From the IMG/VR virus record IMGVR_UViG_3300033150_000701, positions 4,985 through 68,984 of that record: 64,000 bases of DNA. One strand, 5' to 3'. Source of the stretch: a virus. Below the pieces are notes generated by a model. It was not told the origin of the DNA. It did no database searches and saw only the letters and a list, made by a program, of their open reading frames with translations. A program made the translations under genes and the position numbers. Numbering within the stretch: position 1 is the stretch's first letter; each line of letters begins with the position of its first letter. This document shows, piece by piece, positions 8,030 to 56,587 of the stretch.

Positions 8030-8047
8030 CGTTGAATAACACCTCCC

Positions 8048-9905: not shown

Positions 9906-9970
9906 ATTTTAAGATTTTTCAACGTTGAATAAAAAAATAGTAGAGAATAGAGCTATCAGGTTCTACTAGC

Positions 9971-14513: not shown

Positions 14514-15460
14514 TAACCTGTATACATACGATACACGATCTCAAACTCCTCTATCCGACTATAAAGGTTTCTAGACTCTATTCTAGGCACAAATATTCTC
14601 CTAGGTGTGATCAACTCAATATTGTCTGTGGTAGTTCTAACCTCAAACAGTGCTCTATCAGCATACGACAGTAAAGTATCAACCAGATCAGGGTAGGTAG
14701 CTTGAGCTATAAGAGACAGGTTAATCTCGTACACCATAAGCCTATGATCCAAGTAGGGCTGTCTAGTTCTAGGTCTACCTGTAACATCAATGATCAATCT
14801 AGGAAACGAGTATCGTCTAAGTTCCTCTCTAGGATAAGCTGAGTGTATAAAGTCAGGTACATCCACTACAAAGTATATGTCTCCTACAAACACATCCCAT
14901 GATCCACTGATAGTGCTACCTAAACAATCTCCTAACCAGTACCCTGATCCATCCTCATCAGTGTACACAGTGAAATAGTCTGCTGTAGAGGGTGTACATT
15001 GAGGAGATATCTTTAACCAGTACTCGTTCTTAGGTATGAAACCATACTCTGGTAGAGATAGTGTACATGACACTACTTCCATACTGGTAGGTATATCATC
15101 TACAGGGATAGAGTAACTAGACAATGTACTTGTAGATGGATACTCATCTTCACCTTGTATTAGAGATATAACCACCCCTTGATCAGGTGTACCACTCTTA
15201 CTAAGCCTAACAGATACTACCACATTTGGATCGTTAATGTTAGAAGAGGTTAAACCAGTACTGAAAGGCATAAACTTTTGAGCTACATCAATATTCAACG
15301 TTGAATCTGTAACCAGATCGTAAGATACGGTAGCATCAGTATACTCAGGCATCAATCTAGATCGAATAGCGTCTCTAACAGTGTCTTTGATCCAGTTTAA
15401 ACCAAACGGTTCTATAGTGTCAAATATGTTAGAGTCAAAGTATAGTGGATCATAAGCCAT
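14513..15460 (-). CDS. Putative tail terminator/completion protein with inserted beta-sandwich domain
   Basis: Position after the neck genes; C-terminal FPRLIIDV..EINLSL segment resembles tail terminators. Confidence 0.45.
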   Translation of the reverse strand: MAYDPLYFDSNIFDTIEPFGLNWIKDTVRDAIRSRLMPEYTDATVSYDLVTDSTLNIDVAQKFMPFSTGLTSSNINDPNVVVSVRLSKSGTPDQGVVISLIQGEDEYPSTSTLSSYSIPVDDIPTSMEVVSCTLSLPEYGFIPKNEYWLKISPQCTPSTADYFTVYTDEDGSGYWLGDCLGSTISGSWDVFVGDIYFVVDVPDFIHSAYPREELRRYSFPRLIIDVTGRPRTRQPYLDHRLMVYEINLSLIAQATYPDLVDTLLSYADRALFEVRTTTDNIELITPRRIFVPRIESRNLYSRIEEFEIVYRMYTG

Positions 15461-15890: not shown

Positions 15891-16246
15891 TCTCTAATCC
15901 TCCTCAACAGTACTTCCAAGTAGTCTACTTTAACACCTGTTCTTCTAGGTACAACCTCTACTACCTCACATCGTTCACCATTCCTAAGCACAACATGATC
16001 TCTAGGCTCAATATTCAACGTTGAATAAGTGGACATCACGTAATCGACATCTTCAAAGTACCCTACCTGCTCCCATGACTCCCTATATCCCCTAGCAGCA
16101 TACACTAACGCTCTAGCTGTAATAGTGCTTGAAGGAGTAAAGTATGTTCTCATGTCATCATCTAGATTGTCAGAGTACTTGATCACAGAGATAGTTTCAC
16201 CCATAACCCTGATCACAGATGCTATAGCAAACTCCATGTTGATCAC
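15887..16246 (-). CDS. Putative head closure (stopper) protein
   Basis: 119 aa, beta-rich, directly after the adaptor. Confidence 0.55.
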   Translation of the reverse strand: MINMEFAIASVIRVMGETISVIKYSDNLDDDMRTYFTPSSTITARALVYAARGYRESWEQVGYFEDVDYVMSTYSTLNIEPRDHVVLRNGERCEVVEVVPRRTGVKVDYLEVLLRRIRD

Positions 16247-18141: not shown

Positions 18142-18274
18142 GTATTCAGAGTACTAGCTAGTCCAGTAAACAATACACAGCTAAGCAGCTATAACACATT
18201 CAACGTTGAATAAACAGTATAAGAGAAAAAAATACTAAGGGAGATCATGGATCGTAGACTTTGCCAGGTACCAG

Positions 18275-21041: not shown

Positions 21042-23045
21042 CTACTCTCTAATCATAGGCTTAGACCATGTGTGCAACTTGTTCTTACGGATCCATGACT
21101 CAGCATCTTGATAACTCCACTTGTCCCTATCAAATCTGACATAGGCTACTCTAGCATGATGTATTCTACGAGGTACACGATACAAGCAGATACCTACCTT
21201 AACACCTTCAGGTATGTCAATGTCTAAGTATCGTTTTACCTTCTGATCACTCTCACACCTAGTAAACATTCTAAGATCGTACAGTTCAACAGTAAATGTA
21301 GGTCTACCCTTAACATCTATAATCCTAAACGGATCAAAGTACTTACCTGTTCTAGGATCACCATCAGCATCCAGATCCACTAGACTTAGAGTAGGTAGTC
21401 TACTCTTCATAAACACGTAAGGTGAATCAACCTTTAGAATATAGTAGCCTTTCAGTTTGGATCCTTTAAAGTCCATAGACATAAACTGATCAGTGTCCTC
21501 AATAATATTCACAGATCCACTATCTAACACGTTTACTATAGTATCTAACCTACCCACCTTACGGTGTATTCCAGTACCAGACTTGATCATCCATAGATCA
21601 GGATCGTAACAGTACTTCTTAACAGCCCTAATAGGCTCCTCTAACTTAGCCTCTAATGGATTAGAGTACAGGTTAAACTCTACAGCCTTATCAGAAGACA
21701 GTCTAATCCTGATATCCCAATGTGGCTTATCCCTAATCACATGCTCATGCAACACAAACTCATGTTGATCCAGCTCTACACCATTAAGCTTTTCAATAGT
21801 GTAAATGTCACTACCAGCCTCATCCTGTAGTATCTCCCAGTCACCCTTCAATATCTTACCGTTAAACCTGATCCTGATCAGTTCCGATCCATCCACTTTT
21901 TCAACGTTGAATGAACATGATCCAGAATCTAGAATCCTATACTCACCTACAAGCTCCTTGTTAGGGTTAAACCTACTATCTGGATCAGTCTTACCCTCAT
22001 ACGTCATCCACTTCTTACTAGACCGTCTCATTTCAAACAATGATACAAAAGTATCCCTCAATAGGTTACCGTCAACTAGAAACGTTCTAACAGTATCCCT
22101 ACCATCATCTATCAACAGGTACTGTCTAAACTGAGGCATACGTCTACCACTTACAGCCCTAGCCCCCATCCATGAACTTAGTCCTATAGCAAATCTTCCC
22201 TTAGTAAGAGACTCCTCTTCTTCAGATCCTTTAACCCATTCCAACCACTTCTCAAACTCCTCTTTATGCTCCTTAATCCAGTTAGGTGGAATGGGTATAA
22301 CACCTTTAGGAGGCTTCCATTTTTTGTCTCTAGCCCTTTTCGAGACTGCATACGGAGTTTGATCTACAGGAATCATAAACCTCCACATACGCTCATATCT
22401 ACCTGTAGGCTGTTTGGTTTGTGGATCCACAATTGGAACTTTGACAGCTGTAACTACACATCTAACATAGTTCTTAAGCTTAGTACCATTAAGAAAGAAC
22501 TCTTTAAAGTACGGCTTAATAGCACCATCCCACCATGTACCCTTATCCAGTATTGTAATGGTACCTGCCTTCTCTACACCTGCACCTACCTCTTTAGGTT
22601 TAAACTCAATAGTGTCACCTATGTCCTTATCCCAGAACAGCCATACTTTAGGCTGTCTAGCTAGTTCTGTAATAGTACTTAAACTATGATCCTTAACGCT
22701 AACGTAAAATTCACCATCTACACATTCAACGTTGAATAAGTGGTCTGTACACTCACTCTGACTACACTTAGGTTCAGCTCTAAACCCTCTACCCTTCTCC
22801 AATAGCTTATCTACAGTAGCAGGTTGATCCACACTAAACCCTACAATAGATAAACCATCTAAGTACCCGTCTTTCTCTAGTCTAAGATCGAAGTGCTCAG
22901 CGTTGCCTACCCGATGAGACTGAAGTACAAATCTCCTCTTAGACTTTGGATCAGAGTACTCTGTAAACCATGCTAGAGACTCTAGATCCTTCAAACCCTT
23001 AGATCTTACATACTCCCAATCGATCATACTAGGAAGAATCCTCAA
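21042..23045 (-). CDS. Protein with about three LigD 3'-phosphoesterase-like domains
   Basis: FVLQSH..HFDLRLE...GAG...ILDKG and FVLHEH..HWDIRIR...LDSG...F.G.KLKG.Y motifs, plus a degenerate middle copy. Confidence 0.68.
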   Translation of the reverse strand: MRILPSMIDWEYVRSKGLKDLESLAWFTEYSDPKSKRRFVLQSHRVGNAEHFDLRLEKDGYLDGLSIVGFSVDQPATVDKLLEKGRGFRAEPKCSQSECTDHLFNVECVDGEFYVSVKDHSLSTITELARQPKVWLFWDKDIGDTIEFKPKEVGAGVEKAGTITILDKGTWWDGAIKPYFKEFFLNGTKLKNYVRCVVTAVKVPIVDPQTKQPTGRYERMWRFMIPVDQTPYAVSKRARDKKWKPPKGVIPIPPNWIKEHKEEFEKWLEWVKGSEEEESLTKGRFAIGLSSWMGARAVSGRRMPQFRQYLLIDDGRDTVRTFLVDGNLLRDTFVSLFEMRRSSKKWMTYEGKTDPDSRFNPNKELVGEYRILDSGSCSFNVEKVDGSELIRIRFNGKILKGDWEILQDEAGSDIYTIEKLNGVELDQHEFVLHEHVIRDKPHWDIRIRLSSDKAVEFNLYSNPLEAKLEEPIRAVKKYCYDPDLWMIKSGTGIHRKVGRLDTIVNVLDSGSVNIIEDTDQFMSMDFKGSKLKGYYILKVDSPYVFMKSRLPTLSLVDLDADGDPRTGKYFDPFRIIDVKGRPTFTVELYDLRMFTRCESDQKVKRYLDIDIPEGVKVGICLYRVPRRIHHARVAYVRFDRDKWSYQDAESWIRKNKLHTWSKPMIRE

Positions 23046-25069: not shown

Positions 25070-25998
25070 GATCTAGTCAACCTCCTATACAGATCCTTCA
25101 ATTCTTCTTTAGATAATTCACTAAGTCTAGGACTAGGCTTATCCATAGACCATCCTCTTCTAGTACACTCCTCCCTAATAGCTTTACACAGCTTTTTAAT
25201 AACCTCTATCTGTTCCTGCCTAGTAAGATCCTTAAACTGTTCAGACTCAAACTTAGCATTAGGATGATCCTTAAACCATTGCATCCATAAGTGACATGCT
25301 ATCCGATAATCGTCTCTTAACACTTTGTCGGGTACATTCTTAGGATCATAAGTCTTCCAGTTACGAATCAGCTCTACTACGCTATCTAAACAGTCTAAGT
25401 GTACATGAGTAAGCCCTCTCTTATTCAACGTTGAATAAAGTCTAGAGTGCAACCTACAGAATGGATCCATAGGTTCACCATAAGCATGTGTTAAAGCATG
25501 ATAGTAAACCAGATCCCTAACACTCATAGAGTCTAGATCTAGAAACTCTACCCTGTCAGTTCTAACCCATGTCTGTACCCCTTTAGGTAGCTTAACAGGC
25601 TTAGGAGGATCAAACTTAGACACCAACCTGAAACCGTAAACATACAAAGGTTTACTACGATCCCAACCCCACCTATCAAACTCCTCATTGCTAATCCTAT
25701 GCTGATCCCTTAACGACTTAAACCGTTCATAGTCTATCTCTTCAGGATCCTCTAAGTATAGGACACCATAACACAAGCCATCACTAAACAGGTACACCTC
25801 CTCTTTCAGGTGTGGCTTAAGATCCTGCTCTCTACTCCTAACTATCAAAGTCTTAGATCCATCCCATATCAACCTACCATGAGGACTAACAAGATACAGT
25901 CCATACTCAGGCTCAGACTTAACGACTTTAGGGGTAACAACCTGTACATCTTCAGGTTTAAGCTGTAAACCATATCCACAGCCATTTAGATCACTCAT
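25066..25998 (-). CDS. ASCH/PUA-like domain protein
   Basis: GLYLVSPHGRLIWDGSKTLIVRS resembles the ASCH L.I..P.A..I..G.K..E.R motif; PVKLPKGVQTW at the end of the domain. Confidence 0.55.
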   Translation of the reverse strand: MSDLNGCGYGLQLKPEDVQVVTPKVVKSEPEYGLYLVSPHGRLIWDGSKTLIVRSREQDLKPHLKEEVYLFSDGLCYGVLYLEDPEEIDYERFKSLRDQHRISNEEFDRWGWDRSKPLYVYGFRLVSKFDPPKPVKLPKGVQTWVRTDRVEFLDLDSMSVRDLVYYHALTHAYGEPMDPFCRLHSRLYSTLNKRGLTHVHLDCLDSVVELIRNWKTYDPKNVPDKVLRDDYRIACHLWMQWFKDHPNAKFESEQFKDLTRQEQIEVIKKLCKAIREECTRRGWSMDKPSPRLSELSKEELKDLYRRLTRS

Positions 25999-26198
25999 AG
26001 AGTATACCCCTCTATTCAGACAACAGTAGATTATCTAATATACGTTACCTAACATAACTAGATCTAGATGGGAAACTAGCATACGTGCTATAATGCTTCC
26101 TACCTACCGTGAATCAATATTCAACGTTGAATAGAATAGAAACAACCTATCCGATACTTAGAAAAAAAAAGAGGAGGGAAAGGTAAGAGTGAAAACAG

Positions 26199-27787: not shown

Positions 27788-27806
27788 TCACTGTCACCTT
27801 CCATAT

Positions 27807-28787
27807 TCAACGTTGAATACGTCTTTTAAACATGTCCTTTTCAATCCACCTGTAAAGCTTCTCTAACCCATCCTCTAGAGACACTATAGGCTCCCATCCT
27901 AAAGACCTCATAACAGTAATGTCTGCATTCCTACCTCTAACACCTTGAGGGTTACTAAGATCGTGTCTAACCTCAATATCCTTACCACTAATCTCAATTA
28001 TGATCCTAGCTAGATCATTAATCGAGATCAACCTGTCAGACCCTACGTTAACAGGCACATTAAGATCAGAATTCAACAGTACATCTACAGCCCTAACAAA
28101 ATCATCTATGTACAGAAATGATCTTGTCTGATTACCATCTCCCCATATAGTGAAAGGCTCTTTAGGATATAGTATAGCCTTCCTACATAGTGCAGCAGGT
28201 GCCTTCTCTCTACCACCACTATAGCTTGATCCAACACCATACACGTTGTGTATACGAGCTATCTTAACATCTAAACCATAGTCCTTACAGTAAGCCATAC
28301 ACATTCTCTCAGTAGCTAGTTTCTCCCATCCATAAGGAGTATCAGGAGATGCAGGTATAGCATCACTCTCTTTCAAAGGCTGTACATTAGCAACACTCTG
28401 CTTAAACTCTGGATACACACATGCACTACTACAGTACATAAACATGTCAACACCTGCATCTACACTAGCCCTAAGCATGTTAGAGTTCATAGTTAGATTG
28501 TTACTCATTACGTCTGCTCCTACCCTAGTAATGTAGCCTATACCACCCATGTCTGCTGCTGTATGGATCACCAGATCCACATTCTTAGTAGCCCTCTTAC
28601 ACTTCTTAAACAGTCTCAGATCGCTAATCTGATATCTAAACCTAGAGTTACCTATGAGATCAGAAACCCTCTGTAAGCTACCAGTACTCAGATTGTCTAC
28701 AACCAGCACATCATGTCCTCTATTAACAAAGTGTCTAGCTAGATGGCTACCTAGAAACCCAGCTCCACCTGTAACTAAAACCTTCAT
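27807..28787 (-). CDS. NAD-dependent nucleotide-sugar epimerase (GDP-mannose 3,5-epimerase-like)
   Basis: TGGAGFLG, AADMGGIGYI, SSACVYP, YGWEK, REKAPAALCRK and GVRGRN motifs characteristic of GME-like SDRs. Confidence 0.88.
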   Translation of the reverse strand: MKVLVTGGAGFLGSHLARHFVNRGHDVLVVDNLSTGSLQRVSDLIGNSRFRYQISDLRLFKKCKRATKNVDLVIHTAADMGGIGYITRVGADVMSNNLTMNSNMLRASVDAGVDMFMYCSSACVYPEFKQSVANVQPLKESDAIPASPDTPYGWEKLATERMCMAYCKDYGLDVKIARIHNVYGVGSSYSGGREKAPAALCRKAILYPKEPFTIWGDGNQTRSFLYIDDFVRAVDVLLNSDLNVPVNVGSDRLISINDLARIIIEISGKDIEVRHDLSNPQGVRGRNADITVMRSLGWEPIVSLEDGLEKLYRWIEKDMFKRRIQR

Positions 28788-32705: not shown

Positions 32706-33001
32706 TTAACCTCCCTCAGTATTTTTTCAACGTTGAATATGGGTAGATCAGGATGTTCAGACAGCCTATCATAGAACTCAGGATTAACATCCTTGATAAG
32801 CTCAATCAGTCTCTCCCTAGCAATATAGTATCCAAGCCTAATAGAAGAGATATCTCTAAGCTCCTGATCTGACAGTAACAGCTTACACAGCTCTAACTGT
32901 CTCCTACTACGATCAGACAAGCTGTCAACATACTCTGAATAGTTCAGCTTATCCTTAAGACTGGCTCTAATCAATTCCCAATCTACCCTTCTAGCTTTCA
33001 C
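32702..33001 (-). CDS. Hypothetical protein
   Basis: ORF translationally coupled to the GT4 gene. Confidence 0.5.
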   Translation of the reverse strand: MKARRVDWELIRASLKDKLNYSEYVDSLSDRSRRQLELCKLLLSDQELRDISSIRLGYYIARERLIELIKDVNPEFYDRLSEHPDLPIFNVEKILREVK

Positions 33002-34073: not shown

Positions 34074-35966
34074 CTAGATACTAGACCACTGTCTAGTCTT
34101 AAACTCTAACTGTCTAAGACGTGACCAGTCACTATAAGGCACAAAATACCCTACAACCCTAGTGATCCAGTCTAGATCCCTAGATCCACATTCAGGACAC
34201 TTATCATACACACCCATAGTATTATGTCCATTCCTACAAATAGTGAACCCTCTATTAAAAGCAAAGTACACTACTCTAGTATTCTCTAACATTTTAGAGT
34301 GTAACTTGAAACTAGACTCATCATCCATCCAACCCATAATGTTGAAGTGTGCAATAGTACCACCAGTGATCAAAGGCTGTAGTTCACCCTCCACTCTAGC
34401 TCTCTCAACCATAGGTACATCCCTGTATAGAGGCACTAACTGGTTAGAGTAGAAATTGTATGTTCCACCACACATCATCCTATCCTTAGTAGCCAGTATG
34501 TTAGTAGCTCCCTCAGCAGGTACCTCTTCAATGTTGTACATGTAACCATCCTTAACCGAATATTGTAGACTTAACTGTTTAAGAGTCATCAGTACTGTCT
34601 TAGCAAACCGTAAACCATCCTGATCCATAATGTCCATACCCAGTATTTCAAGTGCTTCAGGTAAACCATGAAAACCTATAGTGCTAAAGAAGTGCTTGTC
34701 AAGATCTAACAGCCCTATACTAAAGAAGTAGTTATGCTTCACCTTGTGCTTTAGAAACTGAGTCCTCTGAATAAACAGGATCTGCCTAGCCTCCTCCATT
34801 CTCTCCTCTAACACCTCTAGGAACCTGTCCTGATCACGAGTCTCATAAGCTATTCTAGGCAGGTTAATAGTAACCACTCCATGAGATCCAACGCTCAAAT
34901 AGGATCCGAAAGTGTTGTTAGCATTAAGACCTAACAGATCTAGATCTGAGAACAGCCTACAACAACTAGAGATCTGTTTCAGGTTTCTATGATAGTTATT
35001 GAACAGGTTTAGGAAACACAGATCCTTGTTTAGAGACAGCACCCTATACCACTCATCAGGATACTCTCTACTCCATGATCTATCAGCAACCAGAGTAGTA
35101 ACTGGAAACCTGTAAGGTATACCCAGATAGCCTCCATTATTATCGGGTGTGCCTTTAGACATGAAATCTAAGTACAGCATCTGATTGTATATGATCTCAT
35201 CCATAAGATCGTCAATAGAGTAGCCTCTAAACAATACTGGATCACCATTTTCAACGTTGAATATGCTCCTCATAGTATCTGGAGACTGAATGTTAACATT
35301 GGTAAAGGGGGACTGGTGATTAGCCCTCTCCATGTCGTTAACACCATGTACTAAATTCTGAAAATCATTGATCCTATTATAGTCAGAGTAGTCAGATCTC
35401 TCAATGGTGTAGGCACTATATGCTGGAAACAGATCTGTAAGTGCTACTGCACCTGCAAACATGTTAGCAGCGTACATACACATCCTGATAACTAGATTGA
35501 TAAACGATGACGGTCTGGTAGGCGGCTTACTGGGTAGATTAGCAATATTCAACCCCTGATCTAAAATGTGCTTAGTGGGTAAACCTATACAGTAAACCAG
35601 ATCACAGAATGTAATACTGTTATGAACGTACAGCCTACCCTCAACAACATCACGTACCAACCTATCACCATTAAAACCTAGCTTGTTACCGTACCTCCTG
35701 ATCTGCTGGTATGTTCTAAGCTTGTTAACTGGAGCAGTAACCTCATGCATCAGTCTAATGTAGGATTTTCTATGGTTACCTATGTTAGCATTTGGATCAA
35801 TAGTTAAATCCTGTACAGGCTCACTCCAATACCTATCTCTAAAAGATAAAGGGTTAACTCTAGTAACACCCTCTAGTTCAAGTAGATCCTGATCTAGACT
35901 AGACAAGTAGTCACCCAGATCCTGATCATACAGTCTAACAATGTCCAAGTAGTCAATACCACTCAA
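34074..35966 (-). CDS. nrdD: Anaerobic (class III) ribonucleoside-triphosphate reductase
   Basis: QSPFTN, SSCCRL, GSHGVVTINLPRIA, EEVPAE, CxxxH..CPECG Zn site, glycyl-radical motif RVVGY. Confidence 0.92.
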   Translation of the reverse strand: MSGIDYLDIVRLYDQDLGDYLSSLDQDLLELEGVTRVNPLSFRDRYWSEPVQDLTIDPNANIGNHRKSYIRLMHEVTAPVNKLRTYQQIRRYGNKLGFNGDRLVRDVVEGRLYVHNSITFCDLVYCIGLPTKHILDQGLNIANLPSKPPTRPSSFINLVIRMCMYAANMFAGAVALTDLFPAYSAYTIERSDYSDYNRINDFQNLVHGVNDMERANHQSPFTNVNIQSPDTMRSIFNVENGDPVLFRGYSIDDLMDEIIYNQMLYLDFMSKGTPDNNGGYLGIPYRFPVTTLVADRSWSREYPDEWYRVLSLNKDLCFLNLFNNYHRNLKQISSCCRLFSDLDLLGLNANNTFGSYLSVGSHGVVTINLPRIAYETRDQDRFLEVLEERMEEARQILFIQRTQFLKHKVKHNYFFSIGLLDLDKHFFSTIGFHGLPEALEILGMDIMDQDGLRFAKTVLMTLKQLSLQYSVKDGYMYNIEEVPAEGATNILATKDRMMCGGTYNFYSNQLVPLYRDVPMVERARVEGELQPLITGGTIAHFNIMGWMDDESSFKLHSKMLENTRVVYFAFNRGFTICRNGHNTMGVYDKCPECGSRDLDWITRVVGYFVPYSDWSRLRQLEFKTRQWSSI

Positions 35967-36021: not shown

Positions 36022-36705
36022 CTAATATAGATCACGCTGTTTAAAGTACTCTACAGCCTTAAGGTACTGTTTAAGATTGTTAACTGTCAACCATACACCA
36101 TCATACACTAGCCCCTTAACAACACCCCGCTGTACCAGATCACCCATAACAACCCTTTCCAGATCACCCTGATCAGGAAAATACCTTTCAACTATAGCCC
36201 TGTCAAAACAGTAGTGTCCTAAAGACACTAAGTATGGTAGAATAGGCTTCTCTTCAAACCTTACAATCCTGTAGTCCTCATTAAGCCACACCCTACCGTA
36301 GGGTGATCTAGCTTTACCTAACAGTACTGACACTCCTGCACTATCAACAGCACTACAGCTAACCAGAGTATTAGGATCATAAAACACTATGTCATCACAG
36401 TTACACATGTACAGGTATCTACCACTAGTCCTGTCTAGAGCATTCCTAGCTGCACCACCAGTACCCAGCTTAGACTCCTCAACAGATAATTCAACGTTGA
36501 ATATAGAAGTTATGGACGTAGGTAGCTGATCAGCAACCTCTCTAGAAACAGCTAACACCACTCTATCAAAGTTATAGTGTTGCAGCCACTTGATCTGTCT
36601 CTCCAGTAAAGTACATGATCCCTTGATCTCAAGTAACGGTTTAGGTGTATCAATGTCAGGTTTCATTCTAAGAGATCTACCTCCAGCTAACACTATAGCC
36701 TCCAA
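36022..36705 (-). CDS. Sugar-phosphate nucleotidyltransferase (mannose-1-P guanylyltransferase-like)
   Basis: AIVLAGG.S.RM.P....PKPLL, E..LGTGGA, F.EKP. Confidence 0.88.
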   Translation of the reverse strand: MEAIVLAGGRSLRMKPDIDTPKPLLEIKGSCTLLERQIKWLQHYNFDRVVLAVSREVADQLPTSITSIFNVELSVEESKLGTGGAARNALDRTSGRYLYMCNCDDIVFYDPNTLVSCSAVDSAGVSVLLGKARSPYGRVWLNEDYRIVRFEEKPILPYLVSLGHYCFDRAIVERYFPDQGDLERVVMGDLVQRGVVKGLVYDGVWLTVNNLKQYLKAVEYFKQRDLY

Positions 36706-38791: not shown

Positions 38792-38957
38792 TCCCAGATA
38801 CACCTCACATTCCAATATTACAGGTTAGGTACAAAGGTTTAAGCATTCCTAGTATACTACTCAGAGTTCAATAGAGATAAAAAAAAAGAGATAGAGGGTT
38901 TAAGCACAGTACCTTTACCTGATCAGTTTCTGATTTATTCAACGTTGAATAAGAGTC

Positions 38958-40419: not shown

Positions 40420-40536
40420 TCTCTATCACCTCCTTGAACAGGTACAATTCAGAGATCAATCTCAATCCAGAATATTCAACGTTGAATGTAAAACACATGC
40501 AGATCTCTCACTAGCATCTCTATAGTAATGTAGCTT

Positions 40537-43296: not shown

Positions 43297-43473
43297 CTCC
43301 TATCCTTCTAACTATATTCAAACTAGTAGTAGTGTTTAAACAGGCTACCTTTGAGTCCTCACAATATTCAACGTTGAACAAACTAACCCAATCCCTCCTA
43401 TACTTGATCTCATAGAATTAACAGGACACCGTAATTCGTTAATTGCTCTAGTCTATTCAAATCCTGTTTACCT

Positions 43474-44980: not shown

Positions 44981-45047
44981 TTAGCATCACTCCCTTCTTT
45001 TCAAATATCATTCCCTCTAGACTTTATTCAACGTTGAATAAGACCAT

Positions 45048-47486
45048 CTAGATCCACCTGTCTAACACGTTAACCCCTACAATATCCCTATCCCAGTCTA
45101 AACCTATGATCCTGATCATTTCCTCAACCTTACCCTTAACCTCTCTATCTATAATACGATCATAGTCTATCCTGTCAAGTATCTCATCAGGTAACTGGTC
45201 TACACTACTAAACCCTATAGCCTTCACTATCTTTTTAGATCCCTTAAACATGATAGTGTCTCTAGGATCCTTCTGTAAAGGCAACATGTAAAACCTGTTG
45301 TTAGCTCTAAGCTCTATATCACACTTAACAGCCTTAAGATAAGCATTAACATGTTCAGAGCACACAGCATACTCTTCAACAGGCTTAGACAGTTTAACAG
45401 GTATAGCTACCTGATCTAAACTTAGAGACCTAATAGAGTCAAGCACACTCTTAACGTAACTAGAGATCTCCTCTTTACCCTTACCCTCAAGCATCATTTC
45501 AGACACCTTTTCCTGAATCTGCTTGGTTAGCTCAGACTCGTTCTTCCTAATGATCTCAAGCCCCTTAGTAACCATGCTACCATCAACAGTTTTACCCCTA
45601 TACCTCTTCTTGGTAACCATGATCAAGCTCTCAAACACATTGTCTACGTCTAACACTATTTCACCTGTATCCCTACCCCACCTAGACTTAATGTGATCCT
45701 TAAGATACTTAGACACTTCACTACTAAGCATAGTGGCTTCACCTAACAGATCATCGGTTTTAAGATCTACAAACACGCTATCAGTATCTCCAGCTATAAC
45801 CCTGTACCCTTTAGACTCAAAGTATCCTTTAACAGCCTTCAACAGTTCCCTACCCAGATATGTTATAGACTCAGCTATCTTAGGGTTGTACAGTCTACTA
45901 GCAGGTACCCTATTAGAAGCATTACCTGAGTAACCGTAAATACCATAAAACGAGTTAATAATGTGCTTAAGAGCATCTGATCTCCTCTTGATCCTAAGTC
46001 TCTCCTTACCCTTAAGACTTGGATCTTTAAGCCTCTGCTTTAACGGTCTACGTAACTTCCTGATCTCATCCAGTAGTGTAGGTGTCCATCCTCTAGGTTC
46101 AGATCTGTAACTGTACTTACCGTCTATGTTAATGTCCCCATTACCAAACGGATCCATAGTTTCATAGCTAATATTGAAAGCAGATATGATACTTGGATAC
46201 AGCTCACTAAAATCCAGTACAGCTATACCAAAATGTACCCCTACAACAGGATCTAGTACTAGTCCACCCTCATAGTCTCTATGCTCATAGAATCGTTTAG
46301 TAGGTAGAGCAACATTGCTCTCTCTAGCCTTTCTAAGATAGCATAGGTCACCTATCTTAGAAGGGTATAGTGTATCACTAAAATTACATCCTACTGTTCT
46401 ACGTATAAGATCAAAGAAGTAGTCTATGATACCTAACTCCTCATCTAACAGCCTAGTTAACTCCACGTCTCTAAGGTTACGTTCCAGTACCTGTATCCAG
46501 TTACTATTCCACATGTCAAACACTTTCTTGTCATGGTGTAAACCAGTATAGCCTAACTCCTGTTCACAAATATCTTCTAGTGTTTCCCATTGAGGTGTAC
46601 CGTAAGCTATCCTGTACAGCTTAGCAAGATCCAGTATTTCCCTACCTTCTATTCTAACACTGTTCAATCCTAGCTTAACACAGTCTAAGCTAGATGCTTT
46701 CTTGTACGGTACACGTAACCGTCTAGCTCTATGAAACACATACAACATGTCAAAGTCACTAAAAGACACTATAATATCTGGATCGGTACTTTTAACGTAA
46801 CTAAAGAACCTAGACAGTAAGGCACGTTCAGATCTGCAAGGTATAAGCATTACACTACTAGACTTATCGATCAACACGCTACTTAGATCAGGACTACCAG
46901 TCTTACCAGTGTACAGTACAAGATAGGTGTCACTGTAAGAGTCACTACACCCTACAGCTATGATCTTGTGTTCAGCATTCAATATACTTGGAAACGTATC
47001 TGAATACGTCTCAATGTCAACATACAGCTTCCTGTATACTGAAGGTACACTATTATCAGGCACTATCTCGTTGTCAATGATCCTGTAGCCACATTTAATA
47101 CCTGAATCTATAAGGTATCTAAGTCTAAACAGTACATCAGCCTCATACGTGTCTACCTCAAAGTATCTTGTTCTAACATCCCTAACCTGATCAGGTATAC
47201 CAGTATAGACCTTGATCAGATCCCTATTTTCAAGTAGACTCTTAACATCAGTCTCAGAGTAACCTGCTATAGCACTATCATTCTTAAGCCTCTTAAACAT
47301 GTAACTGTAAAAGTGATCCCTACCCACATAGAAATAGGGTCTAAACCCTTCTACAGGAGTAACAATCCTAGACTTAGAACTTGGATCTCTACCTAACAAA
47401 TACACTACAGGCTTACCATCCTCAATCTTGTAACACACATTGCAGAGACTAACAGTCTTATACTGCAAGTGGGTTCTCATCCCCAT
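45048..47486 (-). CDS. polB: Family B DNA polymerase
   Basis: Exo I DIET, Pol A DFSELYPSII, Pol B K..INSFYGIYG, Pol C GDTDS, KKRY, KGLE; C-terminal PIP-like NVLDRWI. Confidence 0.96.
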   Translation of the reverse strand: MGMRTHLQYKTVSLCNVCYKIEDGKPVVYLLGRDPSSKSRIVTPVEGFRPYFYVGRDHFYSYMFKRLKNDSAIAGYSETDVKSLLENRDLIKVYTGIPDQVRDVRTRYFEVDTYEADVLFRLRYLIDSGIKCGYRIIDNEIVPDNSVPSVYRKLYVDIETYSDTFPSILNAEHKIIAVGCSDSYSDTYLVLYTGKTGSPDLSSVLIDKSSSVMLIPCRSERALLSRFFSYVKSTDPDIIVSFSDFDMLYVFHRARRLRVPYKKASSLDCVKLGLNSVRIEGREILDLAKLYRIAYGTPQWETLEDICEQELGYTGLHHDKKVFDMWNSNWIQVLERNLRDVELTRLLDEELGIIDYFFDLIRRTVGCNFSDTLYPSKIGDLCYLRKARESNVALPTKRFYEHRDYEGGLVLDPVVGVHFGIAVLDFSELYPSIISAFNISYETMDPFGNGDINIDGKYSYRSEPRGWTPTLLDEIRKLRRPLKQRLKDPSLKGKERLRIKRRSDALKHIINSFYGIYGYSGNASNRVPASRLYNPKIAESITYLGRELLKAVKGYFESKGYRVIAGDTDSVFVDLKTDDLLGEATMLSSEVSKYLKDHIKSRWGRDTGEIVLDVDNVFESLIMVTKKRYRGKTVDGSMVTKGLEIIRKNESELTKQIQEKVSEMMLEGKGKEEISSYVKSVLDSIRSLSLDQVAIPVKLSKPVEEYAVCSEHVNAYLKAVKCDIELRANNRFYMLPLQKDPRDTIMFKGSKKIVKAIGFSSVDQLPDEILDRIDYDRIIDREVKGKVEEMIRIIGLDWDRDIVGVNVLDRWI

Positions 47487-47760: not shown

Positions 47761-47958
47761 TATTGTTCTATGTATACGCTATTGATCTACGCTCTTTACA
47801 ACTGTGTGTCCACACTCTAAACAGAAAATAAACTTGGATCTTGAAACGTCTAGATCAACCACCTTCCTATACGCATTACACTGGTTACAGTACGCTACAC
47901 AGTCCATGTTAAACCACCTAGTCCCACAGCATATTCAACGTTGAATAAAAACTGATCA

Positions 47959-48816
47959 CTAAGCCTGATCCTGATCCTCTAGTAAAGTATCGTCAATAGC
48001 ATAAGTACCCCACAGCTTCAACAGGTTGTTAACAACCATCTGTAAGTCTTTACTCTGCCTCTTACATCGATCCTCTGCTGGTTTAAGATTCTCCTTGAGT
48101 ATCCTCCATGTAACAAGTTCTGAGGCAGGATCACCCCTGTCATTTCTAGCCTTAGCTATTTCTAGACGCTTTTTGATCTTGACAGGTAAACCCCTCTTAA
48201 GCTCCTTAGCAAACTGTTCAGCATCATGCAACGGTATCTGATCTCCAACACTGTACAGTTCAAACCTAGCAACAGGATCATCCCTAAACGGCTTATACTT
48301 CAACAGTGGATCCAGTATGTTACGTTTACGTATAGACATCTGTCTAGCTAACACTTTAGTCTTCTCTTCAGCCTCTATCATAGAAGGCATAGTAACCTTT
48401 CTAGCATAGTTGAACAGTGTGCTTTCGGGTATACCTGTACGTTCAGATAACTCTTCAAATGTCAATCCTTGATCCCTAAGCTTCTTAACAGCTAAACCCT
48501 TTTCCTCTATAGATAGAGGTTCTTGATGTTCATTCTCCATTAGAGACTCTATCATTTCATCTATGTCTGAATCGTACTCTCTACGTATAAAAGGTATAGA
48601 GGGGTGGTTAGCCTTTAAAGCAGCTAACCACCTTCTCTGTCCAGCAACAACCTCATTGTTAGTGTTAATGATCACAGGCTGTCTAACACCTTCAGACAGT
48701 ATAGACATTGACAGTTCACTAATCCTCTTCTCCCTCTCAATAGTTCTAACGTTGTTAGGTGAAACCTTTAACAGCTTAGGATCAATGTCTCCTCTCTCTA
48801 CCGTTCTAGATCCCAT
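47959..48816 (-). CDS. ParB/Srx-domain protein with HTH (ParB/Noc/KorB-like)
   Basis: N.R, L..SI...GVRQPV, AGQRRWLAA (GxxRxxA box), ENEHQEPLS, HTH LTFEELSERTGIPESTLFNY, C-terminal putative dimerisation segment. Confidence 0.87.
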   Translation of the reverse strand: MGSRTVERGDIDPKLLKVSPNNVRTIEREKRISELSMSILSEGVRQPVIINTNNEVVAGQRRWLAALKANHPSIPFIRREYDSDIDEMIESLMENEHQEPLSIEEKGLAVKKLRDQGLTFEELSERTGIPESTLFNYARKVTMPSMIEAEEKTKVLARQMSIRKRNILDPLLKYKPFRDDPVARFELYSVGDQIPLHDAEQFAKELKRGLPVKIKKRLEIAKARNDRGDPASELVTWRILKENLKPAEDRCKRQSKDLQMVVNNLLKLWGTYAIDDTLLEDQDQA

Positions 48817-50843: not shown

Positions 50844-50890
50844 ATACCTCTTACAGAGACTTTATTCAACGTTGAATACTTACAGCTAAA

Positions 50891-52947: not shown

Positions 52948-53195
52948 ACATTATCACCTCCTACCTTTTCCTATTATCCAATACTCTACCGTATTCAACG
53001 TTGAATAGCCACAGTATAGAAAACAGACACTTACCCATTCTGAAATTGCCCCTTTTCCTATAGTATAGCTTCTTAACTCACCTTAGAGTCTAGAACCTTA
53101 ACCCATACAGACATTAATAAACATTAGCTAGAAGCGTTTAGGGATCGAGCACAACAAAATAAAAAATATCTAAGTCTCGTGATCCCTGTTCTAGC

Positions 53196-53933: not shown

Positions 53934-53961
53934 CCCTGTAAATATTCAACGTTGAATAAGA

Positions 53962-55228: not shown

Positions 55229-55522
55229 TCACTCCTCTACATTATTTTCAACGTTGAATGAACACTCTAACTCTATAACTGGAGTGTCAATAGGCACATC
55301 ACCAGACATGTAACTGTCCTGAGTAATCCTACATGCGTCAACAGTCATGTTAGGATTAAACTTCTTCAATAGTAAGAAAACTTTAGGGATCTTAGAAATC
55401 CTCACTCCTCTAGCTCTAAGTACCACAGTGCCAACACCTGAATCTCTAAGTGCATGAGCGTACACCACATAACTCATAGGTGATCTCCTACCTACCCTTA
55501 CAACGTTGTCTAATTCACTCAT
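55229..55522 (-). CDS. albA: Alba-family nucleoid/RNA-binding protein
   Basis: NVVRVGRRSPMSYV...GVGTVVLRARG..ISK...IEL matches Alba (NVVLIGKKPVMNYV...KARGRAISK). Start taken at ATG 55522 after SD GGAGGTG. Confidence 0.8.
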   Translation of the reverse strand: MSELDNVVRVGRRSPMSYVVYAHALRDSGVGTVVLRARGVRISKIPKVFLLLKKFNPNMTVDACRITQDSYMSGDVPIDTPVIELECSFNVENNVEE

Positions 55523-55751: not shown

Positions 55752-55837
55752 GCTGTGTAGATCACCTCCTTCTAGTTGTTTTTATCCTGTTGTTAAAGCA
55801 GGACTGTGATCTAGGTAGGGATCTATTCAACGTTGAA

Positions 55838-56587
55838 TCACTTTATGCAAGGTGCTAGGTAGTAGCATAGCTTATGTCCCGTAGCAATTAACTCTACAGG
55901 TGCATCGTTACCAAACAGTAATGACACTACGTCACATAAAGGCTTAAGAGCTTTAACCAGAGGCATTAACAGTTCTAGATCAAAACTAGACTTAGCACAT
56001 CCATCAATGTCAAGTACAGCATCATCTCCAGATTCAAATACTACATCACATGTAGCAGATTCATCTCTAGACGTCAACGTGAATACTCCAGATTCAATAT
56101 TGAAATCTATAATGGTATCTTCAACAACCTTGAACATTTTAAGTGACTCTTCAAACTCTGCTAGGTCTAGTATTACCATAGCATTAACAGGTATGTTAAC
56201 ATCAGGCAGATCAGATCTGTACAGTGTTGGAATTGGAATAGTAAACTTGGATCTCTTGATCTTAATGATCAGCGTGTCTAGTAGATCGTTGTGATATTCA
56301 ACGTTGAATATTACTGGATCACCTTTCTTAGCCATCTTCAATACTCCTGATCTACCAACTACCTTCTCTAAAGGCATATGAAATGATACAGGAGTCTCAA
56401 CACTATACTGATCAAAGTCTGAACTAGGTATCTCTAAGCGTATCAATCTGGTGTGATCTCTAGATAGCTCTTCCACTAAGAGACCAGATTGACTAAACTG
56501 CATTAGTGGATCATCATTGTTAATGACAGCTACAGCATTGAATAATTTTCTAAGTCTAGCTCCATCACTATAAGTAAACAACTCCAT
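55838..56587 (-). CDS. pcn: PCNA sliding clamp
   Basis: 249 aa. L......D.T.LI.L.IP...FD.Y, SSF.L..L, L.FG.D.P, YYLAP. Confidence 0.88.
   Translation of the reverse strand: MELFTYSDGARLRKLFNAVAVINNDDPLMQFSQSGLLVEELSRDHTRLIRLEIPSSDFDQYSVETPVSFHMPLEKVVGRSGVLKMAKKGDPVIFNVEYHNDLLDTLIIKIKRSKFTIPIPTLYRSDLPDVNIPVNAMVILDLAEFEESLKMFKVVEDTIIDFNIESGVFTLTSRDESATCDVVFESGDDAVLDIDGCAKSSFDLELLMPLVKALKPLCDVVSLLFGNDAPVELIATGHKLCYYLAPCIK

What the first reader, a model, noticed from the sequence alone, without database searches (positions are those of the whole stretch)
47934..48816. Orphan ParB-HTH protein as candidate reader of the palindrome: a Noc/KorB-like viral system without ParA
Seen: a ParB/Srx domain with an intact GQRRxxA box and EN motif, an HTH and a C-terminal dimerisation-like segment. 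A palindrome copy lies about 14 bp after its stop codon. No ParA/MinD ATPase is adjacent or elsewhere in the window. Known: ParB-family CTPase clamps load at 16-bp palindromes and slide; Noc and KorB use many dispersed sites for nucleoid occlusion or long-range gene control rather than one centromere. Inference: an archaeal-virus ParB loaded about every 2 kb could coat the whole genome for condensation, segregation, shielding from host defence or global transcription control.
Basis: inference. Interest (0 to 1): 0.85.

Follow-up and report, generated by a model that had tools for sequence, protein, structure and literature searches.

The report
Virus-wide palindrome sites for partner-less ParB
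An uncultured archaeal-type tailed virus writes one 16-letter DNA palindrome about every 2 kb along its genome and encodes a partner-less ParB-type DNA-binding protein that is the best candidate to dock on it, and related viruses show the same pairing with a different palindrome each.

Summary
Observation confirmed. ORF 47959-48816 (-) encodes a 285-aa ParB/Noc-like protein: ParB_N domain, HTH and a C-terminal dimer domain. The whole 68,984-bp genome has no ParA, ParM or tubulin hit. TATTCAACGTTGAATA occurs 30 times in the window and 35 times in the genome (expected 0.01). Most copies lie at gene borders. Twelve lie inside unrelated genes, in both stop-free frames.

New here: six related viruses each carry their own over-represented palindrome. 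All six genomes that include the replication module, counting this one, encode this ParB between an RPA-like gene and PolB. Three complete, more distant relatives have neither ParB nor a dispersed palindrome.

Corrections: box II never has the catalytic Glu (GQRR here), and the Arg of the EN box is Gln, so CTP hydrolysis, and perhaps binding, is doubtful. The C-terminal domain looks ribbon-helix-helix-like. Binding of ParB to the palindrome is inferred, not shown (confidence about 0.55).

The scan has reported orphan ParB with genome-wide palindromes before, in several bacterial viruses. Cluster O mycobacteriophages have a printed analogue of unknown function. I class this as a new variant of a known kind.

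The parts
47959..48816 (-). ParB-family gene, 285 aa, orphan (no ParA)
48532..48786 (-). ParB_N (CTPase-fold) domain, residues 11-95. Box II is GQRR. EN box is present but its Arg is replaced by Gln98
   Evidence: residue roles from PMC8367383
48352..48516 (-). Central helix-turn-helix DNA-binding region, residues about 101-155
   Evidence: weak Pfam HTH hits; aligned to the Noc HTH region
47962..48135 (-). C-terminal dimerisation domain, residues about 228-285, ribbon-helix-helix-like (one strand, two helices)
   Evidence: dimer model interface; family alignment; no Pfam RHH hit; only a weak PDB hit
47932..47947 (.). Palindrome copy (perfect), 11 nt after the parB stop codon
48820..49857 (-). 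RPA/OB-fold-like gene directly upstream of parB. The gene pair is syntenic in relatives
   Evidence: (lead only)
45048..47486 (-). Family B DNA polymerase. parB lies next to PolB in all relatives that hold this region
151..166 (.). Palindrome copy, perfect, upstream of the TerS-like gene
1547..1562 (.). Palindrome copy, 1 mismatch, inside TerL
4664..4679 (.). Palindrome copy, 2 mismatches, inside an ORF
8023..8038 (.). Palindrome copy, perfect, at a gene border
9315..9330 (.). Palindrome copy, perfect, intergenic
9916..9931 (.). Palindrome copy, 1 mismatch, intergenic
15292..15307 (.). Palindrome copy, 1 mismatch, inside an ORF
16012..16027 (.). Palindrome copy, perfect, inside an ORF
18197..18212 (.). 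Palindrome copy, 1 mismatch, 106 nt upstream of the major capsid gene. G004 has a site at the matching place
20073..20088 (.). Palindrome copy, 1 mismatch, inside an ORF
21898..21913 (.). Palindrome copy, 2 mismatches, inside an ORF
22723..22738 (.). Palindrome copy, 1 mismatch, inside an ORF
25422..25437 (.). Palindrome copy, perfect, inside an ORF
26118..26133 (.). Palindrome copy, perfect, intergenic
27804..27819 (.). Palindrome copy, perfect, overlaps a stop codon
31415..31430 (.). Palindrome copy, perfect, intergenic
32724..32739 (.). Palindrome copy, 1 mismatch, in the last 22 nt of an ORF and 18 nt before the next start
35248..35263 (.). Palindrome copy, 1 mismatch, inside NrdD
36488..36503 (.). 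Palindrome copy, 1 mismatch, inside an ORF
38936..38951 (.). Palindrome copy, perfect, intergenic
40473..40488 (.). Palindrome copy, 1 mismatch, intergenic (covered only by a 43-aa opposite-strand ORF)
43365..43380 (.). Palindrome copy, 1 mismatch, intergenic
45025..45040 (.). Palindrome copy, perfect, 7 nt after the PolB stop
50863..50878 (.). Palindrome copy, perfect, 12 nt after the RadA stop. G004 has a site directly after its RadA
52992..53007 (.). Palindrome copy, perfect, intergenic
53943..53958 (.). Palindrome copy, perfect, intergenic
55245..55260 (.). Palindrome copy, 2 mismatches, 19 nt upstream of the 233-aa ATPase gene
55824..55839 (.). Palindrome copy, 1 mismatch, at the PCNA stop codon
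56295..56310 (.). Palindrome copy, perfect, inside PCNA

Best explanation
The 16-bp palindrome is the docking site of the virus's own ParB-family protein. That protein is an orphan: it has no ParA and no ParA-binding motif. It combines a ParB N-domain, a ParB/Noc-type HTH and a ribbon-helix-helix-like C-terminal dimer domain.

A dimer would sit on each of the 35 sites. Two thirds of the sites lie at gene borders, typically just after a T-rich stretch and just before the next ribosome-binding site and start codon. The result would be a genome-wide ParB-DNA network.

This network most resembles the KorB operator network of plasmid RK2 (global control of transcription units). A role in organising or marking replicating viral DNA is also possible, because parB is a fixed member of the RPA-like / ParB / PolB replication module.

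Box II lacks the catalytic Glu in the whole family. Any nucleotide-closed clamp would therefore be long-lived rather than recycling, or the protein may act as a static binder.

Shown: the anatomy, the statistics and the co-occurrence across the clade. Inferred: that ParB binds the palindrome, and what that binding does.
For: 1. The protein is ParB/Noc/KorB-fold with an HTH. Pfam. PDB sequence matches to Noc, Spo0J and ParB. AlphaFold model pLDDT 93.1, with top Foldseek hits Noc 7nfu, ParB-CTP/CDP 7bnk, 6sdk, 7bm8 and KorB 8qa9.

2. A homodimer is predicted, as a palindrome reader needs. Score 0.75, best of 3 controls 0.00. This mark was reached by 20 of 30 proteins solved as pairs of one chain and by 1 of 23 solved as single chains. 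The runs agree in at least 87% of contacts and the partner pLDDT is at least 77. ParB dimers are solved, so part of this pass may be likeness to known structures.

3. The site behaves as a dsDNA protein site.
- It is a perfect dyad through its centre.
- The 11 central positions are invariant in 35 of 35 copies. Variation occurs only at the outer positions and is not compensatory.
- The 12 in-ORF copies use both stop-free frames (4 read STLN, 8 read FNVE) in unrelated proteins.
- No two copies are closer than 301 bp (P = 0.0036 under random placement).

4. The trait is clade-wide, with a different word in each virus:
- G004: TGTAGTCCGGACTACA, 43 copies.
- G005 and G006: GATAGTWACTATC core, 23 and 31 copies (reversed-pattern control 1 and 1).
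- G001: AAGATSATCTT, 16 copies.
- G003: TCTCTANTAGAGA, 8-9 copies (expected 0.06).
- G002: TTAATATTAA, 23 copies (expected 2.2).

5. ParB is present, in the synteny RPA-like / ParB / PolB, in 6 of 6 genomes that hold that region: G000, G002, G003, G004, G005 and G006.

6. Three complete or near-complete, more distant TerL relatives have no ParB and no dispersed palindrome. For G011, G019 and G030 the top dyad scores are 7.8-11.1, against 5.5-10.3 for shuffles and 33-200 for the clade.

7. Phyletic pattern. orf128, orf164, ERCC4, PolB, the methyltransferase and NrdD also occur in the palindrome-less genomes. RHH53, wHTH111 and Myb74 have no tblastn hit (E <= 0.01) in any relative.

8. Of 56 proteins of this genome scanned with Pfam, ParB is the only one with an HTH-type hit.

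9. Non-viral relatives of this ParB sit near single perfect 16-bp palindromes. There are 7 in 53.5 kb, against a shuffle mean of 1.3. One of them is a perfect bacterial-type parS in L029/L030.
Against: - No binding data exist, and no protein-DNA model could be made.
- The co-occurrence comes from one clade, so the genomes are not independent. RPA-like, RadA, the 233-aa ATPase, TerS and the structural genes show the same presence pattern.
- Many small ORFs have no annotation, and any of them could be an unrecognised DNA binder.
- G002 has only a weak AT-rich motif, and G003 has few sites, although both have ParB.
- G045 has a ParB_N protein but no palindrome in its 28.9 kb.
- L028, which holds the closest cellular relative (49% identity), has no 16-bp palindrome in 13 kb.
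- CTP chemistry is doubtful. The equivalent of Caulobacter E102 is Gln60 and the equivalent of R139 is Gln98 (R139A bound CTP weakly or not at all; PMC8367383).
- The concentration at gene borders would also fit an ordinary operator bound by another repressor.
Confidence: 0.55

Rival explanations
1. Another virus-encoded dimeric DNA-binding protein reads the palindrome as a genome-wide operator or roadblock, similar to stoperators. Candidates are an unannotated small protein, the 53-aa RHH-like ORF, the TerS-like protein, or the conserved 99-aa ORF 32702-33001. ParB would then have a separate job in replication or recombination.
For: - About 23 of 35 copies lie at gene borders, often 3-12 nt after a stop codon and 9-24 nt before the next start.
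- Most small ORFs have no family assignment.
- TerS and the 99-aa ORF are shared with G004, G005 and G006.
- Stoperator networks bound by a dedicated repressor are known in Cluster A mycobacteriophages (PMC9283540, abstract in the listing).
Against: - RHH53, wHTH111 and Myb74 have no homologue in any relative, although the trait is clade-wide.
- TerS proteins are not known to use dozens of dispersed sites (my general knowledge).
- No protein other than ParB gave a sequence-specific DNA-binding hit among the 56 scanned.
- The sites are symmetric, unlike the oriented stoperators (PMC4351075 discussion).
Confidence: 0.25
2. The palindrome acts at the RNA or transcription level, as an intercistronic hairpin, terminator or processing signal, or as part of a promoter, without a dedicated viral DNA-binding protein.
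For: - Nearly all genes are on one strand, so every copy is transcribed in the same sense.
- T-rich sequence often precedes the copies, and a Shine-Dalgarno-like sequence often follows them.
- Haloarchaeal HF1/HF2 viruses carry intergenic repeats with promoter elements (PMC7230728, passages).
Against: - The loop and stem are both invariant, and the outer changes are not compensatory.
- 12 copies sit deep inside ORFs.
- The distance to the next start codon varies from 4 to about 120 nt.
- Closely related viruses use unrelated words. That is hard to reconcile with host RNA polymerase or host RNase signals.
Confidence: 0.08
3. The palindrome is a self-mark or a hot spot for a nuclease, recombination or defence-evasion function, for example a target or protection site for the XPF/ERCC4-RadA recombination module, or a site for a host factor.
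For: - The genome shows extreme short-palindrome biases. CCGG, GCGC and CGCG each occur 0 times against about 97 expected; GATC is 3.6-fold and CTAG 2.5-fold over-represented.
- The virus carries RadA, ERCC4, a ligase and an RPA-like gene.
Against: - ERCC4 and the methyltransferase also occur in the palindrome-less relatives.
- The exact 16-mer is at chance level elsewhere: single copies in 24 viral contigs and in at least 120 stretches of cellular genomes. No cellular genome stretch held more than 2 copies within 8 kb.
Confidence: 0.07

Closest known systems
KorB and its 12 dispersed OB operators on IncP-1 plasmid RK2 (PMC11790492, passages and reference list; PMC3597684 introduction)
   Same: - A ParB-fold protein with an HTH (Foldseek hit 8qa9).
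- A short palindromic site dispersed over a replicon of about 60-70 kb.
- Many sites at or near transcription-unit borders.
- A plausible global silencing role.
   Different: - KorB works with IncC (a ParA) and with the clamp-lockers KorA and TrbA. It is a DNA-stimulated CTPase.
- Here there is no ParA and no recognisable KorA.
- Box II lacks Glu.
- There are 35 sites rather than 12.
- The C-terminal domain is RHH-like.
- The genes are archaeal-type and the replicon is a tailed virus.
Noc and its chromosome-wide binding sites in Bacillus (structures 7ol9, 7nfu, 7ng0)
   Same: - The best sequence and structure matches.
- An orphan ParB paralogue without the ParA-binding motif.
- Many dispersed 16-bp-class palindromic sites.
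   Different: - Noc has an N-terminal membrane-targeting helix (recalled; PMC12704722 passages mention its membrane-binding activity). Here only about 10 residues precede the domain, and they are modelled as a strand.
- Noc has GERR; this protein has GQRR.
Cluster O mycobacteriophages (Corndog): more than 30 copies of a 17-bp dyad repeat plus the ParB-like gp90 (PMC4351075, passages)
   Same: - A tailed virus of about 70 kb with 34 invariant dyad-symmetric sites throughout the genome.
- About one third of the sites lie inside genes.
- No parAB system; a ParB-like protein and an AAA ATPase are encoded.
- The authors predict a dimeric DNA-binding protein and leave the function unknown.
   Different: - The host is bacterial and the repeat has a 3-bp spacer.
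- The authors did not link the repeat to the ParB-like protein.
- This case adds the clade-wide change of the word, the ParB-less negative relatives and the RHH-like tail.
Stoperators of Cluster A mycobacteriophages (PMC9283540, abstract in the listing; PMC4351075 discussion)
   Same: Dozens of repressor sites spread over a phage genome, many next to stop codons, that silence it globally.
   Different: Stoperators are asymmetric, oriented with transcription, and bound by a monomeric immunity repressor, not by a ParB.
Canonical ParABS centromeres
   Same: - The ParB N-domain and HTH.
- A 16-bp perfect palindrome with a central CG. Half-site identity to the parS found in L029/L030 is 5 of 8 positions (by eye).
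   Different: - No ParA, and no LG[KR]GL-type ParA-binding peptide (motif as defined in PMC12704722).
- Sites are not clustered near one locus.
Orphan ParB-CTPase-fold proteins on mobile elements and in Asgard viruses (PMC12704722; bioRxiv 10.1101/2024.03.22.586370)
   Same: Orphan ParB homologues are reported as common on mobile elements. An Asgard virus (Opia) is reported to encode a ParB-like CTPase and a PCNA.
   Different: In the passages I read, neither paper mentions dispersed cognate sites or an RHH fusion. 'ribbon', 'RHH', 'CopG' and 'dispersed' each have 0 occurrences in PMC12704722.

Membership tests
ParB/Noc/KorB (ParB-CTPase fold with HTH) | ParB N-terminal domain (PF02195) | tested here: met
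   E 1.8e-12, 47.6 bits against a cut-off of 26.3, residues 11-95
ParB/Noc/KorB (ParB-CTPase fold with HTH) | Box II Arg pair (G-x-R-R) used for CTP binding | tested here: met
   G59-Q60-R61-R62. G59 and R62 are invariant in 64 aligned family members. R103A and R104A lose CTP binding in Caulobacter (PMC8367383).
ParB/Noc/KorB (ParB-CTPase fold with HTH) | Catalytic Glu of box II (GERR) | tested here: not met
   Gln60 here. The position is Q, G or S in all 13 rows of alignment A6 and never E. Caulobacter E102A binds CTP but does not hydrolyse it and is clamp-locked.
ParB/Noc/KorB (ParB-CTPase fold with HTH) | Box III E-N followed by Arg (the ENLQR pattern is recalled) | tested here: inconclusive
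   E94 and N95 are kept. The Arg position is Gln98 here, and R or K in G003, G004 and G005. R139A binds CTP weakly or not at all. I mapped residues by motif spacing, not by an alignment to the Caulobacter sequence.
ParB/Noc/KorB (ParB-CTPase fold with HTH) | Central HTH DNA-binding domain homologous to that of ParB/Noc | tested here: met
   phmmer alignments to Noc and Spo0J run through residues 149-173. Foldseek aligns 190-220 columns to Noc, ParB and KorB.
ParB/Noc/KorB (ParB-CTPase fold with HTH) | C-terminal dimerisation | tested here: met
   Model only: score 0.75 against best control 0.00, interface in residues 197-280. The fold appears RHH-like, not Pfam ParB_C.
ParB/Noc/KorB (ParB-CTPase fold with HTH) | Binds a cognate palindromic site; CTP binding and clamp closure | not testable with these tools
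   Needs EMSA, BLI, DAP-seq and nucleotide-binding assays.
Canonical ParABS partition system | Partner ParA ATPase and an N-terminal ParA-binding peptide | tested here: not met
   0 hits for PF01656 and PF13614 in the whole genome. The N-terminus, as translated, has no [LIF]G[KR]G[LIF] motif (read directly from the sequence).
Noc | N-terminal amphipathic membrane-targeting helix | tested here: not met
   Only about 10 residues precede the domain, and residues 3-11 are modelled as a strand. That this helix defines Noc is recalled.
KorB network | Clamp-locking partner (KorA or TrbA) and operators at or distal to promoters | not tested
   No KorA-like protein was recognised. Promoters of this virus are unknown.
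Ribbon-helix-helix DNA-binding domains | Strand-helix-helix unit that pairs into an antiparallel two-stranded ribbon in the dimer | tested here: inconclusive
   In the dimer model, residues 231-241 of one copy pair with 232-240 of the other, followed by helices 241-254 and 258-270. The sequence pattern is conserved in 12 family members. There was no Pfam RHH hit at E <= 5. The best natural PDB hit is 2kel_A at E 0.21.
Stoperator-type repressor network | Asymmetric sites oriented with transcription | tested here: not met
   The site is a perfect palindrome.

The most novel reading that the evidence does not exclude
A family of ParB proteins in archaeal-type tailed viruses is naturally hydrolysis-dead (no Glu in box II) and carries an extra RHH reader domain. 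It loads at 20-45 virus-private palindromes and stays on the DNA. Each virus would then have a private genome identity code. The code would gather its own replicating DNA into a ParB assembly for replication, transcription timing or packaging, and would tell it apart from host DNA and from co-infecting relatives. The rapid turnover of the word between sister viruses would then reflect selection for incompatibility or exclusion.
Probability: 0.15. Interest if true: 0.9.

Novelty: new variant of a known kind. Interest (0 to 1): 0.7.

Why it matters
ParB-type clamps are textbook chromosome and plasmid segregation factors. KorB and Noc showed that the fold can also run long-range gene control or nucleoid occlusion from dispersed sites.

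This case is a clade of viruses with archaeal-type replication genes that has no ParA. It keeps ParB as a core replication-module gene, and each virus rewrites its own palindrome dozens of times across its genome. If the link holds, three things follow:
- The KorB/Noc logic would extend to viruses that carry archaeal-type genes.
- The clade offers natural ParB-site pairs (three or more different words) for studying how ParB specificity and its sites co-evolve.
- It would give a candidate explanation for the unexplained dyad repeats printed for Cluster O mycobacteriophages.

The test is direct, with purified proteins and synthetic DNA.

Tried and rejected
- Close relatives through ParB, capsid or PolB peptides in viral contigs: none found. 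The ParB subfamily alignment A2 gave 1 weak locus in viral contigs and nothing in genome contigs.
- The exact 16-mer elsewhere: 24 viral contigs with one copy each. So there is no donor or host genome enriched in the word among what was listed.
- Metagenome loci with ParB relatives (L026-L035) hold neither the window's word (<=3 mismatches) nor any dispersed palindrome.
- Adjacency of a copy to parB: rejected as evidence, because it is too common at gene junctions.
- The 7.8-kb stretch without copies over the ubiquitin-like operon is not unusual (P = 0.5).
- RHH assignment of the C-terminal domain by Pfam: no hit. By PDB profile: only weak hits.
- Sequencing runs: one DNA holder with a small share (0.14) and no RNA holder listed. 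I did not lay reads.
- A protein-DNA complex model was not possible with the tools offered.
- I did not align the Caulobacter, Noc or KorB sequences themselves. No tool returned them as usable ids, so the residue mapping rests on motif spacing.
- The phage N15 dispersed-centromere analogy is recalled only. Search one search returned just a reference title, so I do not use it as evidence.
- Supplementary files of papers were not seen. The supplementary tables and figures of PMC12704722 on domain fusions may already list an RHH-type fusion.
- A ParB-palindrome link for viruses in print: not found with searches. These are limited word searches of open-access text.
Full report
**What is at the coordinates.** The ORF runs 47959..48816 on the minus strand and encodes 285 aa. 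Pfam finds ParB_N (E 1.8e-12, residues 11-95) and several weak HTH models over residues 101-161. By sequence, the closest solved proteins are Noc (7ol9, 7ng0, 7nfu), Spo0J (1vz0) and ParB (6sdk, 7bnk, 6t1f). E-values are about 1e-13 to 1e-11, and the alignments run from about residue 17 to 149-173, so they cover the N-domain and the HTH. An AlphaFold2 model built on a 64-row alignment has mean pLDDT 93.1. Its best Foldseek matches are Noc 7nfu, nucleotide-bound ParB (7bnk, 7bnr, 6sdk, 7bm8), Spo0J and KorB 8qa9. A perfect copy of TATTCAACGTTGAATA lies at 47932-47947, 11 nt beyond the stop codon.

**The genome.** The window is bases 4985-68984 of a 68,984-bp virus record with a 48-bp terminal direct repeat, so it is probably a complete genome. 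Its genes include:
- HK97-type capsid, portal and large terminase;
- archaeal-type replication and repair genes: family B polymerase, PCNA, RadA/Rad51, ERCC4 with HhH, and NrdD;
- an RPA/OB-fold-like neighbour of parB, which is a lead only (feature score 0.85).

Nearly all genes are on the minus strand. No partition NTPase was found. CbiA/ParA, AAA_31, ParM/StbA and tubulin models each gave 0 hits at E <= 1 in the whole genome. The N-terminus lacks the [LIF]G[KR]G[LIF] ParA-binding motif as defined in PMC12704722 (passages). The protein is therefore an orphan ParB.

**The palindrome.**
- Copy number: 30 copies with <=2 mismatches in the window (expected 0.01; 0 of 100 shuffles reached 30) and 35 in the genome.
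- Conservation: the 11 central positions are invariant in 35 of 35 copies. Changes occur only at positions 1-3 and 15-16 and are not compensatory.
- Placement: with a crude ORF set (96 ORFs, 93.6% coding), 19 of 35 copies lie mostly outside ORFs, against about 2 expected. Four more copies are covered only by 41-46-aa, probably spurious, ORFs or overlap a stop codon. That gives about 23 of 35 at gene borders (plus my curation).
- Copies inside genes: the 12 copies inside long ORFs use both frames that avoid a stop (4 read STLN, 8 read FNVE) in unrelated proteins, including TerL, NrdD and PCNA. Selection therefore acts on the nucleic acid, not on a peptide.
- Spacing: the mean is 1,970 bp. No two copies are closer than 301 bp (P = 0.0036 under random placement), and the coefficient of variation is 0.76 (P = 0.05). 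The 7.8-kb gap over the ubiquitin-like operon is unremarkable (P = 0.5).
- Flanks: read in the sense of transcription, a T-rich stretch often precedes the intergenic copies, and a Shine-Dalgarno-like sequence and start codon follow 4-45 nt later.

Box II is G59-Q60-R61-R62. Passages of PMC8367383 report the following for Caulobacter ParB:
- R60A, S74A, G79S, R103A, R104A, N136A and R139A bind CTP weakly or not at all.
- Q58A and E135A bind CTP but do not hydrolyse it.
- E102A binds CTP and closes and entraps DNA, but does not hydrolyse. It is 'clamp-locked', dissociates about 15-fold more slowly, and spreads further in E. coli.

Mapping by motif spacing, R24, S38, G43, R61, R62, E94 and N95 are kept. 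The E102 position is Gln60 and the R139 position is Gln98. In a 13-row alignment of the family, the E102 position is Q, G or S and never E. The box is therefore not 'intact' in the catalytic sense. At best this is a non-recycling clamp, and nucleotide binding itself is uncertain.

**The C-terminal domain.** A two-copy complex prediction supports a homodimer. The score is 0.75 and the best of 3 controls is 0.00. This mark was reached by 20 of 30 proteins solved as pairs of one chain and by 1 of 23 solved as single chains. The runs agree in at least 87% of contacts, and the partner pLDDT is at least 77. The interface lies in residues 197-280. Residues 231-241 of one copy pair with residues 232-240 of the other, followed by helices 241-254 and 258-270. 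This strand-helix-helix unit and its sequence pattern recur in 12 family members. It looks like a ribbon-helix-helix domain. However, Pfam gives no RHH hit, and a profile search of the PDB gives only weak hits. The best natural one is 2kel_A at E 0.21, which I recall to be an RHH regulator of an archaeal virus. ParB dimers are solved, so the pass may partly reflect likeness to them.

**Relatives of the protein outside viruses.** The word-index search found only 6 relatives. The exhaustive profile search found 11 representatives at E <= 1e-30 before the family merges into generic ParB, with 32,405 at E <= 1e-3. Ten metagenome loci encode relatives. None has the window's word or any dispersed palindrome. 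They do hold 7 perfect palindromes of 16 bp or more in 53.5 kb. The shuffle mean is 1.3 and the maximum 5 in 200 shuffles. Control viral loci hold 8 in 224 kb. One of the 7 is a perfect bacterial-type parS, 1.9 kb from the ParB gene in an integrated element next to a tRNA-Thr gene (L029/L030). This suggests that the family reads single 16-bp palindromes in its ordinary setting.

**Relatives of the virus: the key result.** TerL homologues (alignment A5) led to 49 viral loci. A ParB family alignment (A6) led to two more genomes. Every near relative has its own over-represented palindrome:

| Genome | Size and status | Palindrome | Copies |
|---|---|---|---|
| G004 | 107 kb, terminal repeats | (AG)TGTAGTCCGGACTACA(CT) | 43 with <=2 mismatches; 18 of 43 intergenic at 92% coding |
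| G005 | 107.9 kb, complete | ATAGTWACTAT core; consensus AGATAGTWACTATCT | 23 (reversed-pattern control 1) |
| G006 | 109.8 kb, complete | same core as G005 | 31 (reversed-pattern control 1) |
| G001 | 48.8 kb, 45% complete | AAGATSATCTT | 16 |
| G003 | 55.8 kb, 59% complete | TCTCTANTAGAGA | 8-9 (expected 0.06) |
| G002 | 92 kb, 82% complete | TTAATATTAA | 23 (expected 2.2; weak) |

ParB is encoded next to PolB, mostly just after the RPA-like gene, in G002, G003, G004, G005 and G006. The G001 contig ends before this module and also lacks PolB, RadA and the RPA-like gene. Counting this virus, 6 of 6 genomes that contain the module have ParB.

Among 45 more distant TerL relatives, 2 have a ParB_N hit at E <= 0.01. 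The three complete or near-complete ones (G011, G019, G030) have none. Their best dyad scores (7.8-11.1) are at the level of shuffles (5.5-10.3), against 33-200 in the clade. G045 has a ParB_N protein but no palindrome in its 28.9 kb (26% complete).

Some site positions are shared between this virus and G004: upstream of the capsid gene, directly after RadA, and between ParB and PolB.

**Who else could read it?**
- Of 96 ORFs, 30 have tblastn hits in both G004 and G005.
- orf128, orf164, ERCC4, PolB, the methyltransferase and NrdD also occur in the palindrome-less genomes, so they do not track the trait.
Short, fast-evolving proteins can escape tblastn, so this is not decisive.
- ParB, the RPA-like protein, RadA, the 233-aa ATPase, the TerS-like protein, a 99-aa ORF and the structural proteins share the trait's distribution.
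- Of 56 proteins scanned with Pfam, ParB alone has an HTH-type hit.
- The genomes come from one clade, so the co-occurrence is not a set of independent events. The word itself has changed at least four times.

**Mechanism I commit to.** ParB dimers dock on the palindromes, with confidence 0.55. Given the placement at cistron borders behind T-rich stretches, the most likely effect is genome-wide control of transcription units. That resembles KorB on RK2 (12 sites; a CTP clamp reaching promoters from distal operators; PMC11790492), or a symmetric analogue of stoperators. A role in organising replicating viral DNA is also possible, given the fixed place of parB in the replication module. Whether the HTH, the RHH-like ribbon, or both read the word is open. 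The lack of the catalytic Glu argues for long-lived or static complexes.

**Novelty.**
- Orphan ParBs on mobile elements are described as common (PMC12704722).
- A ParB-like CTPase is reported in an Asgard virus (10.1101/2024.03.22.586370).
- Phage ParBs that activate thymine dioxygenases lack an obvious DNA-binding domain (PMC13229309, abstract).
- Cluster O mycobacteriophages carry 34 invariant 17-bp dyad repeats of unknown function and a ParB-like gp90. The authors did not link the two (PMC4351075).
- This scan has noted orphan ParB with genome-wide palindromes in several bacterial viruses.
- My word searches did not find the link in print for viruses.

What is new here:
- the setting in a virus with archaeal-type genes;
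- the RHH-like tail;
- the family-wide loss of the box II Glu;
- the change of the word between sister viruses;
- the ParB-less, palindrome-less outgroup.

I class it as a new variant of a known kind, with interest 0.7.

Noticed in passing
whole genome (window 1-64000 and G000:C1:1-4984): CCGG, GCGC and CGCG each occur 0 times against about 97 expected. GGCC occurs 19 times. GATC is 3.6-fold and CTAG 2.5-fold over-represented. In G004, GCGC and CGCG are 0, but CCGG occurs 77 times, much of it within its own palindrome. In G005, CCGG, GCGC and CGCG are 0 and GGCC is 2.
   Followed up: partly
window 54524-55225 (-): A 233-aa P-loop ATPase, conserved in G001, G002, G004, G005 and G006 but not in the ParB-less relatives. 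The protein atlas places it with viral AAA / Pox_A32 / FtsK-HerA-type ATPases at scores 0.95-0.98. Pfam and PDB hits are weak. It is an extra DNA-pump-like ATPase in a virus that already has a TerL. It is not a ParA-type Walker A protein.
   Followed up: partly
window 48820-49857 (-): A 345-aa protein directly upstream of parB. It has no Pfam or PHROG hit. The atlas features and structure resemble archaeal RPA/SSB OB-fold proteins (0.85; TM 0.4-0.5; lead only). The pair with ParB is syntenic in G002, G003, G005 and G006; in G004 a 352-aa ORF separates them.
   Followed up: partly
L030 7915-7930 and L029 4338-4353: An integrated element with a tyrosine-recombinase-like ORF, next to tRNA-Thr. 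It carries one perfect bacterial-consensus parS and a ParB-RHH relative (41% identity). No ParA was evident in the ORF list, which I did not scan with HMMs.
   Followed up: partly
L037, L049, L085, L094, L112 (Lysinibacillus genomes): The same 16-mer occurs twice, 602 bp apart, in five Lysinibacillus genome stretches. It is presumably an unrelated bacterial operator pair.
   Followed up: no
G004:C1:6101: One copy of this virus's 12-bp core (as CTTCAACGTTGAAG) occurs in G004, which otherwise uses a different word. G001 has one near-copy at 26630.
   Followed up: no
G004:C1:48599-50771; G003:C1:51519-53660; G002:C1:18807-20807: tblastn hits to TerL (G004, G003) and RadA (G002) are split by gaps of roughly 1 kb. 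This suggests inteins, introns or inserted homing genes.
   Followed up: no
G004:C1:13984-15033 and 36688-37743: G004 has two capsid-protein paralogues, 41% and 55% identical to this virus's capsid protein.
   Followed up: no
L156 1722-2030 (-) (G000 bases before the window): A 102-aa protein with weak SAMP2 / ThiS / ubiquitin-like hits, close to the E1/E2/JAB operon that another note describes.
   Followed up: no
window 55229-55546 (-) and 51882-52094 (-): A weak Alba-like hit (E 2.3e-4, below the cut-off) and a SWIM zinc-finger hit (E 4.7e-5) among the small replication-module ORFs.
   Followed up: no
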